A DNA stretch of 64,000 nt from Escherichia coli (GTDB lineage Bacteria > Pseudomonadota > Gammaproteobacteria > Enterobacterales > Enterobacteriaceae), in NCBI RefSeq assembly GCF_002854065.1, contig NZ_CP024150.1; one strand, given 5' to 3'. A program made the position numbers. This document shows positions 58,301 to 61,300 of the stretch, in pieces; position 1 is the first letter of the stretch; each line of letters starts with the position of its first letter.

Positions 58301-61300
58301 TTCGCACTGTCGCTGACGGAATGCCCGGGCGTTTCCACCCAGCCGTTCTCCAGCTTCAGTGCCATGAATGGTGAATCGCTCACAGGCAGGGAGGCCGGTT
58401 CAGCCCGCCCCGGCACAACAACCGTCATCGCATCTTCACTGACGGATGCCACCTGCAGGCGGTCACCGCCGGAGACGCGGAGTCCGGGAATTTTCCCTGT
58501 CACCCTCAGTCGCTCGCCGTCTGCCACCGGCATTTTTTCCGGCCGGAACAGCGACCAGCTGCTGTCCAGGGAGGAAATACGCACCACCTGCGTTTCATCC
58601 TGCGCATCCCGCAGGGTCAGGCTGTTACTCTGCGCCGTCACCCGGTCGATAACATAGCGGTCATGACTGCGTGTCTCCGGGTTCCACTGCTCCATCACCA
58701 TCCCCGGTCGGTACATATCCCGCAGATAACGGCTCCGGCTGTCCAGCCAGACCGGTGACAGGGCGGTCATGGTTACCTCCGGGTGTCCGAGCACGCCCTG
58801 TGTTTTCAGCTCACTGCGAATGGCCTGTGTCAGTATGGCCTGTTCCCGTACCCCGCTGACCTGTGCCACGCTCTCTTCTCCGGCTTTCACGCTGGCCGCA
58901 AAATCTCCGGCCAGCCGGTCATAGCGGACATTCCGGTCCGGTTCACTGATGATGGTTGCCGGTCGCTGTTCTCCGCCCTGCCAGCGATACGTGTTCACCC
59001 CGGCATCCTTCATGGCCATCAGCGCACTGCCTGTACCGGTTCGCTGCCCGCTGTCGGTTATCAGGACCTGTACGTTATGACGTGCGGCACCGTCCAGCAG
59101 GGTTAACGTCTCTTTCAGGGAGAGTTTTTCGCCCTGGTCAACGATAACGGTACTGCCCGGTGTGAAGGCCATACCCTCCAGCAGCTGACGACGTCCGGTT
59201 ATCAGCTCACCGGACAGCCGTTCATCCTGCTTCAGGTTCATCTGCGAACGACGGTCAGCAGCGATAATCTGCACCTCCCGCCCCTGCTCCCGGGCCATCA
59301 TGACCAGCTCCGCCACCCGCTCACGCTGCCCGGCTGCACCGCCCTGCCCGGACACAATGGCCAGCGACGGGCGATCCTGTGCCAGAACACTGACGGCATC
59401 GCTGTAACCGGCCGTCCGGGGGACACTTTTCTCCGGATGTACGGTCACCCGGTTCTGTTTCATGATGTCACGACTGAGTGCCCGGACTGACAGCTCATCG
59501 AGCACATGAATTCCTGATGTGAACAGCCCCTTCTCACGATCGAGGGGGATAAGCTGCTCACGGCTGATGGCCTCATCGATACCGGCGCGTGCCCGTTCAA
59601 TCACACCATTTTCCGGCGGCAGTATGCCGACCGTCCTGGCCAGCACGTCCGTGTACGTGAACTGCACTTTTCGTTCACTTAATCCGGCAATCGCCTGTGT
59701 CACCGCCTGCTGCACATCCGGCCCGTCCTGTGAAGCTGGCCCGGGCGCCTGCGTGCGGGTCTCCGCCCGTTGATCCGCCGCGTCACGATACGCCCGGATG
59801 TCGAACCCGGTTTCCTTCAGCGTCTGCATCCATTCAGCCATTCTGACTTCCGGATCGACGTGCTGTTTGGATTTACGCGTATCCAGTGCCGCCACATCCC
59901 GGGATTTCAGCGAGGCCCCTTCCCCGACGGCCTCCCTGATAGCCTGTGAACGACTGGAAAAGGCCTCCACCGGTACGCCCGGCATCTCCCACATACCGTG
60001 CTTACCGACCACTTCGGTTTCATAACCCAGCGCCTCAACGCGCTGACGTAACTCACTCTGATATATTTTCCCGAACGCAATCCGGTTCGCGAGCACGTTC
60101 TCGGAAAATCCGGTTTTCCCCACTTTGTCACTGCTCAGTGTCTTCCACTCGCCGTTATGCTGCGTGACATTAGCCACCACCACATGCGTGTGTAACTGTG
60201 GGTCCTGATCGCGACTGGTGTCATGGTTAAACAGTGCCATCACCAGATTACCGGTCAGCACCGTTTCTGACTGTCCGTCCGTCATCACCCGTGTGGAGGC
60301 CAGCGCCTCCACCTGACGGACAGCAAAATCCACGGCCTGGTTATGTGCATCAATAAGACGTTTATCCCCCCCGAGCATGGCCATCATGGAGACACTTTTG
60401 GGGGCGGAGAAGGTCAGGTCGTAGCCGGGACGATGCTTATTACTGCCATCCTGCATGCGGCTTAAATCCGCCCCGTCCGGCAGCCTGCCCTCCAGAAGAC
60501 GGGTAAAAACATCCTTATCGACGCTGCCCTGCAGCCCAAGCTGTTCAGCCCCCTGACCGGCCCAGCGTTCTCCCATGCTACCCAGCACATAGTAATTATC
60601 CTTGTCGGTGTAATAGTTTCCGGCACTGCCTGCCGATTTAACAACGCTGAAACTCAACATCAGAAATCATCTCCCGGCTCAACATCCTCCCCGCGCTCCC
60701 GGTGCACATTAATGTTCACCTCTTCACGACGCTGCATCTGCTGCTGGATGTCCGGATGATTTTCCTGTTGCCACGCCTCATAAGCGGCCATATCCACCAC
60801 TTCACCGGATTCACTGATCCCGGGTGGCAGTTGCTGTTCCATCTCTTCTTCCGGTTTCATGTTCAGCTCCTGCTCGCTCCCCCCTGCCGGAACACTCACA
60901 CCTGCATCTGACTTCTTATCATTGATGACAGAAGACACTGGCTGTTGTGGCTGTTGTGGCTGTTGTGGCTGTTGTGGCTGTTGTGGCTGTTGTGGCTGTT
61001 GTGGCTGTTGTGGCTGTTGTGGCTGTTGTGGCTGTTGTGGCTGTTGTGGCTGTTGTGGCTGTTGTGGCTGTTGTGGCTGTTGTGGCTGTTCAGCCTGAGT
61101 CACGCCTTCTCCGGAGGCAACCTCCGGTTCGAAGAGGCTGGCCATCTGGCGACCTTCTGCTTCCCTTGCAGCAAGTACGGCACTCAGACGGTTCTCCATT
61201 TCCGGGTTGATGTCACGCGGAATAAACTCCGGAGCGACCTTCGGTCGTGCCTGATATTTCAGAGAGAGTTTGACTGCCGGATACGGTCCGGGCAGAGTGA

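What the first reader, a model, noticed from the sequence alone, without database searches (positions are those of the whole stretch)
60941..61084. Sixteen-copy 9-bp tandem repeat expanding the (QQP)n tract of TraD
A perfect tandem array of gctgttgtg x16 encodes a long Gln-Gln-Pro tract in the TraD C-terminal extension. F-family TraD proteins carry a much shorter tract as I recall. Such arrays are hypervariable by slippage and useful as plasmid lineage markers.
Basis: seen in the sequence. Interest (0 to 1): 0.35.

Follow-up and report, generated by a model that had tools for sequence, protein, structure and literature searches.

The report
QQP repeat in dead traD gene
The 16-copy 9-bp repeat is real, but it is an ordinary allele of a length-variable Gln-Gln-Pro tract already described in F-like TraD proteins, and here it lies in a broken, non-functional remnant of the traD gene.

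Summary
Window 60941-61084 holds 16 perfect copies of GCTGTTGTG, which read CAACAGCCA = Gln-Gln-Pro on the minus strand. TRF extends the array to 60939-61090 (16.9 copies, 100% match).

- The tract is the known variable "QQP motif" of the C-terminal extension of F-like TraD (Lang et al. 2011, PMC3245843).
- Classical F has only one QQP unit.
- Sixteen copies is not exceptional. In 113 sampled plasmids the tract runs from 1 to 28 copies, with a median of 7-8, and about 6% have 16 or more. At least 58 plasmids carry 19-33 copies, almost all in traD genes annotated as intact.

- A deletion of about 44.8 kb removed the first 597 nt of traD, up to and including the Walker A motif. It also removed traM through traT, oriT and the leading region.
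- A second deletion of 502 bp inside traD shifts the reading frame.
- No F-type mating-pair genes or F-type oriT remain.

The array is best read as a slippage-prone, in-frame coding tandem repeat left as a relic in a decayed gene. Novelty is nil and interest is low.

The parts
60941..61084 (-). Perfect tandem array (CAACAGCCA)16 encoding (Gln-Gln-Pro)16. With partial units in the flanks it extends to 60939-61090.
60660..61773 (-). 3' fragment of traD, equivalent to nt 1167 to the stop codon of an intact 744-aa traD. It is 100% identical to pH1519-76 traD outside the array. It contains the residual ORF 60660-61751 (363 aa from GTG, 360 aa from ATG): the C-terminal part of the ATPase domain (Walker B region), the QQP tract and the C-terminal tail.
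   Evidence: (RefSeq: pseudogene, missing N-terminus)
61772..61840 (-). Isolated 69-bp traD fragment (nt 598-666, codons 200-222, [23 protein letters not shown]). It is out of frame with the downstream fragment. The inner 502-bp deletion junction lies at 61772/61773, with a 2-bp overlap.
61834..61840 (-). Outer deletion junction: a 7-bp overlap (GAGGATA) between parM-upstream DNA and traD nt 598. Relative to pEco15-3 about 44.8 kb is missing: the leading region, oriT, traM through traT and the 5' 597 nt of traD, including Walker A at nt 574-597.
60660..60794 (-). Coding sequence for the last 44 residues of TraD ([10 protein letters not shown]...EDVEPGDDF) plus the stop codon. The residues are identical to those of F TraD. 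In intact TraD this end carries the TraM-interaction domain.
   Evidence: role from PMC3245843
55390..60660 (-). Intact traI (1756 aa relaxase/helicase). Its start codon overlaps the stop codon of the traD remnant.
61841..62338 (.). Ordinary parM-upstream region of F-like plasmids, 100% identical in many IncF plasmids. It includes 11-12-bp parC-like repeats (62171-62220, 62289-62323) and a repeated leading-region element (61843-62164).
62339..63654 (+). parM (62339-63301) and parR-like partition gene (63301-63654). These now sit next to the traD remnant because of the large deletion.

Best explanation
The array is one allele, n = 16, of the known length-polymorphic 9-bp coding tandem repeat (CAACAGCCR)n. 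In intact F-like TraD coupling proteins this repeat encodes a Gln-Gln-Pro tract in the C-terminal extension, between the TrwB-like ATPase core and the TraM-binding tail. The unit is 9 bp (three codons) and the copies are identical, so replication slippage or unequal recombination adds or removes whole units without breaking the frame (inferred). That fits the observed copy numbers from 1 to 33 among otherwise near-identical traD genes. In this window the gene carrying the array is dead. One deletion of about 44.8 kb and one of 502 bp, both at short microhomologies, left only a frameshifted 3' remnant, on a plasmid that has lost the F-type secretion genes and oriT. The 16-copy tract therefore has no role in conjugation here. 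It is a relic, either inherited from the intact ancestor or drifted neutrally since.
For: - Array exact and non-random.
- Same unit and position in intact traD genes: 11, 30 and 33 copies, and 1 in F.
- Described in the literature as a variable QQP motif in the unstructured C-terminal extension, next to the TraM interaction domain: PMC3245843.
- TrwB structural homology ends at residue 573, and the tract starts at residue 620.
- Copy number differs in exact multiples of 9 bp in 113 of 114 sampled records.
- The closest relatives by flank identity (99.8-100%) have 8-13 copies.
- Pseudogene status: RefSeq annotation 'incomplete; missing N-terminus'; BLAST junctions; in-frame stops upstream of the ORF; Pfam shows TraD_N lost and only profile positions 223-387 of TrwB_AAD_bind kept; Walker A falls just inside the deleted part.
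- No F mating-pair-formation genes annotated, and no F oriT or nic site found.
Against: - Slippage is inferred from the population pattern. It was not observed directly.
- The remnant lineage is known from only two sibling sequences, both with 16 copies. That shows no change after pseudogenisation and cannot say when the array reached 16.
- A 360-363-aa ORF remains open and abuts intact traI, so some expression of a C-terminal fragment cannot be excluded. The only test was a simple consensus scan, which found no sigma-70-like promoter.
- Record positions 49301-59999 of the sibling plasmid were not examined for oriT.
Confidence: 0.87

Rival explanations
1. The copy number is an assembly artefact. 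A 144-152-bp perfect array is about the length of a short read and could have been collapsed or expanded, so 16 may not be the true number.
For: Many database TraD proteins are fragments that end at contig edges near this tract, which shows that short-read assemblies do break here. No reads are available to me.
Against: The window and the complete record NZ_AP027791.1 are distinct sibling sequences: they differ by an ISApl1 insertion and a 39-difference patch in traI. Both carry exactly 16 copies. Arrays of 16-33 perfect or near-perfect copies occur in dozens of independently assembled complete plasmids, so 16 is biologically unremarkable.
Confidence: 0.05
2. Tract length is functionally tuned rather than neutral. 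The number of QQP units sets the reach or flexibility of the tether between the TraD ATPase and the TraM-binding tail, or alters susceptibility to pilus-specific RNA phage. On this view the 16 copies were selected in the intact ancestor.
For: Lang et al. 2011 (PMC3245843) suggest that variation in the TraD C-terminal extension, including QQP length, may underlie plasmid-specific differences, and that phage resistance drives diversification. Long tracts persist in traD genes annotated as intact.
Against: The distribution is broad and continuous from 1 to 33, with no preferred length other than the F-type minimum. Near-identical alleles carry very different numbers. In this window the gene is dead, so no such selection can be acting now. 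The paper itself says the idea was 'under investigation', and I found no functional test.
Confidence: 0.1
3. The residual 360-363-aa ORF is expressed. Because it keeps the TraM-binding tail on a long QQP tether, it would act as a decoy that interferes with, or modulates, transfer of co-resident F-like plasmids.
For: The ORF is open from the inner junction to the native stop codon. It keeps the TraG-D_C region and a C-terminal tail identical to F TraD. It is directly followed by intact traI, traX and finO.
Against: The native upstream operon and its promoter are deleted. No promoter-like site was found on that strand upstream. An open frame is what a recent deletion leaves by default. The junction is found only in the window and its one sibling record, and in no metagenome contig, which argues against a selected, spreading element.
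Confidence: 0.03

Closest known systems
QQP motif (variable glutamine-proline repeat region) of the C-terminal extension of F-like TraD coupling proteins, as described by Lang et al. 2011, Mol Microbiol 82:1071 (PMC3245843)
   Same: Same repeat unit (QQP, encoded by CAACAGCCA/G). Same position, about 47 residues after the TrwB-like ATPase core and upstream of the TraM-binding tail. Same flanking sequence (AEQP...[11 protein letters not shown]). It is length-variable among plasmids.
   Different: Here the copy number is 16. The paper quotes 5 residues for F and 23 for R1. Here the host gene is a truncated, frameshifted pseudogene rather than a working coupling protein.
Intact traD of close IncF relatives (pH1519-76 NC_025177.1; pEco15-3 NZ_CP047713.1)
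   Same: 99.9-100% nucleotide identity over the retained parts of traD and over traI. Identical repeat unit.
   Different: The relatives have 10-11 copies and a complete 741-744-aa gene within a full tra operon. The window has 16 copies and lacks nt 1-597 and nt 667-1168 of traD.
In-frame coding tandem repeats (VNTR-type loci) that change length by slipped-strand mispairing
   Same: Perfect head-to-tail copies. The unit is a multiple of three bases. Copy number varies in whole units between otherwise identical sequences.
   Different: It is not an on/off phase-variation switch, because changes stay in frame. No phenotype is linked to length. The mutation rate has not been measured.

Membership tests
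Functional F-like TraD type IV coupling protein gene | N-terminal membrane-anchor domain (Pfam TraD_N, PF12615) | tested here: not met
   Pfam finds TraD_N in the intact reference but not in the remnant. traD nt 1-597 are absent.
Functional F-like TraD type IV coupling protein gene | Walker A nucleotide-binding motif and a complete TrwB-like ATPase domain | tested here: not met
   Walker A (GTVGAGKS, nt 574-597) lies inside the deleted 5' part. Only profile positions 223-387 of the 387-position TrwB_AAD_bind model are present. The 502-bp internal deletion shifts the frame.
Functional F-like TraD type IV coupling protein gene | C-terminal extension ending in the TraM-binding tail | tested here: met
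   The last 44 residues are identical to F TraD, and the extension is intact.
Functional F-like TraD type IV coupling protein gene | Sits in an F-type tra operon with mating-pair-formation genes, traM and oriT | tested here: not met
   No F mating-pair genes are annotated in the sibling record. The 44-kb leading plus tra segment of pEco15-3 has no counterpart apart from short repeated elements. No nic site was found. Record positions 49301-59999 were not examined.
TraD QQP variable region (Lang et al. 2011) | Gln-Gln-Pro repeats in the C-terminal extension, between the NTP-binding domain and the TraM interaction domain | tested here: met
   description in PMC3245843
TraD QQP variable region (Lang et al. 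2011) | Length differs among F-like plasmids | tested here: met
   1-28 copies in 113 sampled records, and 19-33 in the top 60. Sequence-verified at 1, 11, 16, 30 and 33 copies.
Slippage-prone in-frame coding tandem repeat (VNTR) | Identical head-to-tail units whose length is a multiple of 3 | tested here: met
   16 identical 9-bp units
Slippage-prone in-frame coding tandem repeat (VNTR) | Copy number changes faster than flanking point substitutions | tested here: met
   Flanks 99.8-100% identical carry 8 to 16 copies. All length differences but one are multiples of 9.
Slippage-prone in-frame coding tandem repeat (VNTR) | Measured gain or loss of units during replication | not testable with these tools
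   This needs fluctuation or mutation-accumulation experiments, or read-level heterogeneity data.

The most novel reading that the evidence does not exclude
The traD remnant is not inert. Its open 360-363-aa frame (half an ATPase domain, a long QQP tether and the TraM-binding tail) would be expressed together with the intact traI-traX-finO genes. It would act as a decoy or adaptor that titrates TraM of co-resident F-like plasmids and so modulates their transfer from a host carrying this virulence-type plasmid.
Probability: 0.03. Interest if true: 0.4.

Novelty: already known. Interest (0 to 1): 0.1.

Why it matters
It matters little biologically, because the tract and its variability are already described and this copy sits in a dead gene. 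The useful points are practical.
- Annotation or typing that treats this locus as 'TraD' would wrongly suggest the plasmid can transfer by the F route.
- The repeat is a known trouble spot for short-read assembly.
- Its copy number is too changeable to define plasmid lineages. At most it can separate very close relatives.
- Whether tract length tunes TraD-TraM docking or phage sensitivity in intact genes remains untested. This locus cannot address that question.

Tried and rejected
1. A protein-database search with the C-terminal 217 aa returned mostly contig-end fragments and chimeric calls. It could not give a copy-number distribution, so I used flank-anchored DNA searches instead.
2. The first literature search matched 'trad...' words and was mostly noise. 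Whole-word searches found only Lang et al. 2011.
3. I first assumed the window was NZ_AP027791.1 itself. Direct comparison failed and showed a sibling plasmid.
4. I looked for more members of the remnant lineage, to see whether copy number changed after the gene died. The exact 363-aa product is not on record. The 360-aa product is on record only in AP027791.1. The inner-junction 36-mer is absent from metagenome contigs. The junction is in only one record of PLSDB and of the complete E. coli genomes. So that question stays open.
5. My first oriT slice missed the nic site. I repeated it with a wider slice and a motif search and again found nothing.
6. The '80% coverage' counts were not used as copy-number thresholds, because coverage with overlapping repeat alignments did not follow a simple formula.
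7. Span-derived counts for the ~92%-identity F-type alleles run one unit too high, because F has a 9-bp insertion in the flank. The mode at '2' in the samples is really 1 unit.

Full report
**Observation.** The + strand of window 60941-61084 reads GCTGTTGTG sixteen times without a single mismatch. Tandem Repeats Finder reports the array as 60939-61090, period 9, 16.9 copies, 100% matches, no indels, score 304. The extra 0.9 copy comes from partial units in both flanks. On the minus strand the unit is CAA-CAG-CCA, and the open frame there reads ...VTQAEQP(QQP)16[11 protein letters not shown].... The array is not a chance feature. The longest period-9 self-match in the window is 143 bases, against 10 anywhere else in the window and 7-10 in shuffled copies. 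No other tandem repeat in the 64 kb comes close; the next TRF score is 77. The array has no stop codons in any + strand frame, so it also generates three spurious + strand ORFs (CGC..., LWL..., AVV...). These should be ignored.

**What gene it lies in.** The reading frame and flanks are those of traD, but the gene is not intact.
- The open frame on the minus strand is only 363 aa (60660-61751), with stop codons directly upstream.
- BLAST against the intact 744-aa traD of pH1519-76 shows that window 61773-60660 equals traD nt 1167 to the stop codon, at 100% identity outside the array. Window 61840-61772 equals traD nt 598-666.
- So 502 bp of traD (nt 667-1168) are deleted, with a 2-bp overlap at the junction. 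Since 502 is not a multiple of 3, the two fragments are out of frame.
- Upstream of 61840 the homology to traD stops altogether.
- Comparison with the close intact relative pEco15-3 (NZ_CP047713.1) shows that window 62400-61834 is the normal region upstream of parM (record 11534-12100). It is joined to traD nt 598 (record 56910) through a 7-bp overlap, GAGGATA.
- In pEco15-3 the intervening ~44.8 kb holds the leading region, oriT, and traM through traT.
- The Walker A motif GTVGAGKS occupies nt 574-597, just inside the deleted part.
- Pfam agrees. The intact protein has TraD_N and a full TrwB_AAD_bind domain. The remnant has no TraD_N and only profile positions 223-387 of 387.
- RefSeq annotates the same stretch in the sibling record as a pseudogene, 'incomplete; missing N-terminus'.

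**Plasmid context.**
- The window is almost identical to NZ_AP027791.1, a 109.8-kb IncFIA/IncFII plasmid of a human faecal E. coli from Viet Nam. It is not the same sequence. It lacks an ISApl1 copy present in the record, and it differs at 39 positions, all within a 1.5-kb patch of traI.
- From 58627 to 64000 the two are identical, including both deletion junctions and all 16 repeat copies.
- The sibling record has no F-type mating-pair-formation genes. The only F transfer genes left are the traD remnant, traI, traX and finO.
- The rest looks like a virulence-type plasmid: a type IVb pilus cluster, enterotoxin B-subunit genes, microcin B17, and a separate MOBP relaxase.
- Neither the oriT region of pEco15-3 nor an F-like nic-site motif is present in the window or in the 99 kb of the sibling that I held. 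Record positions 49301-59999 were not examined.
- The deletion junction occurs in no other record of PLSDB or of 5,426 complete E. coli genomes, and in no metagenome contig.

**Is sixteen copies unusual?** I anchored searches on 200-bp unique flanks, so that the span in each record gives the copy number.
- About 3,970 PLSDB records and about 3,200 RefSeq E. coli records carry the locus.
- In evenly spaced samples down the rankings, 113 of 114 full-length spans differed from the query by an exact multiple of 9 bp.
- The PLSDB sample (n = 55) ran from 1 to 28 copies, with a median of 8 and four records at 16 or more.
- The E. coli sample (n = 58) ran from 1 to 21 copies, with a median of 7 and three records at 16 or more.
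- Together that is about 6% at or above 16. Within the window's own allele class (flank identity of 97% or more, my hand tally from the rows) it is about 14%.
- A synthetic query with 40 copies ranks records by tract length. All 60 top rows had 19-33 copies, and most (49 of 60) were annotated as type IV coupling protein TraD.
- I verified the extremes at sequence level:

| Plasmid | QQP units | TraD length |
|---|---|---|
| F | 1 | 717 aa |
| pH1519-76 | 11 | 744 aa |
| 2013C-3250 plasmid unnamed5 | 30 (perfect) | 801 aa |
| pKGu016_2 | 33 (28 CCA-type, 5 CCG-type) | 810 aa |

Sixteen is in the upper tail and well inside the natural range.

Three caveats apply. The two collections overlap and contain clonal plasmids. 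The sampling follows a similarity ranking. Counts for the ~92%-identity F-type alleles run one unit high, because F has a 9-bp insertion in the flank.

**Hypervariability.** Records whose 1.3-kb flanks are 99.8-99.9% identical to the window carry 8 to 13 copies. One record with 100% identical 200-bp flanks carries 13. Plasmids of almost the same size from the same studies differ by one unit (9 vs 10) or by five (22 vs 27). Length therefore changes much faster than point substitutions accumulate. It changes in whole units, as expected for slipped-strand mispairing or unequal recombination in a perfect array. That mechanism is inferred, not observed. The window and its sibling, which have diverged by an IS insertion and a recombination patch, both have 16 copies. 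The array is therefore stable over that short distance, which also argues against a one-off assembly error.

**What the tract does in intact genes.** Homology to the solved TrwB ATPase covers TraD residues 160-573. The tract begins at residue 620, and the protein ends in a tail identical to that of F. Lang et al. 2011 (PMC3245843) describe the 150-200-residue C-terminal extension as unstructured, important for substrate specificity and in contact with TraM tetramers. They name the 'QQP motif' as a variable region within it, with 5 residues in F and 23 in R1. They raise, without testing, the idea that this variation contributes to plasmid-specific behaviour and phage-driven diversification. I found no later paper in the searchable library that tests tract length. 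The most economical reading is a flexible spacer whose length is tolerated over a wide range. A tuning role cannot be excluded for intact genes, but it is irrelevant to this dead copy.

**Could the remnant still do something?** The 360-363-aa frame stays open and abuts intact traI. However, its operon promoter is deleted, and a consensus scan found no sigma-70-like site on that strand upstream (a weak test). The junction has not spread beyond the window and its one sibling record. I give a decoy-type function about 3%.

**Verdict.** The repeat encodes QQP in the traD frame and is hypervariable. It is, however, an ordinary allele of a polymorphism already in the literature, it is not an exceptional expansion, and it sits in a pseudogene on a plasmid that has lost the F transfer system. 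It is a poor lineage marker except among very close relatives. Interest is low, and the feature is already known.

Noticed in passing
window 57164-58626 (inside traI): All 39 differences between the window and its sibling record NZ_AP027791.1 across the 12-kb traI-parM stretch cluster in this 1.5-kb patch. This looks like a recombination (gene-conversion) tract that brought in a different traI allele. traI stays open (1756 aa).
   Followed up: partly
window about 51874-51875: The sibling record has an ISApl1 (IS30-like) copy here, at record 107234-108208, splitting an hha/ymoA-family regulator gene. The window lacks the insertion.
   Followed up: partly
window 55390-60660 and downstream (traI, traX, finO): A full-length F-type relaxase/helicase gene, with traX and finO, persists on a plasmid with no detectable F-type oriT, traM, traY or mating-pair genes. 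It is unclear whether it is simply not yet decayed or acts in trans on other plasmids.
   Followed up: partly
window 61843-62164: This stretch upstream of parM is one copy of a repeated leading-region element. It is 96% identical to a second copy in pEco15-3 (record 13076-13395), and related ~190-bp repeats occur several times in the leading regions. It overlaps a small annotated 'hypothetical protein'. Its nature was not determined; it may be a single-strand promoter or initiation element.
   Followed up: no
window 62171-62220 and 62289-62323: Degenerate 11-12-bp A-rich tandem repeats lie just upstream of parM. They are consistent with parC-type centromere iterons.
   Followed up: no
window 60859-61652, + strand: The array has no stop codon in any + strand frame, so it creates three spurious ORFs encoding (CGC)n, (LWL)n and (AVV)n. 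Gene finders could call these by mistake.
   Followed up: yes
protein database hits P0006, P0008, P0032, P0037, P0039: Large clusters of partial TraD proteins come from very short contigs (386-2,420 bp) and end near the QQP tract. This indicates that the repeat commonly breaks short-read assemblies of F-like plasmids.
   Followed up: partly
window about 25995-26372 and 26785-40975 (by mapping to record 23941-24318 and 9338-23528): An enterotoxin B-subunit gene annotated with an internal stop lies next to a complete type IVb pilus gene cluster. The sibling record has a second, intact B-subunit gene outside the window. This suggests an enterotoxigenic E. coli virulence plasmid.
   Followed up: no
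window 46393-46423 and 47130-47172: Two short tandem repeats: 15 bp x 2.1 copies and 14 bp x 3.0 copies.
   Followed up: no
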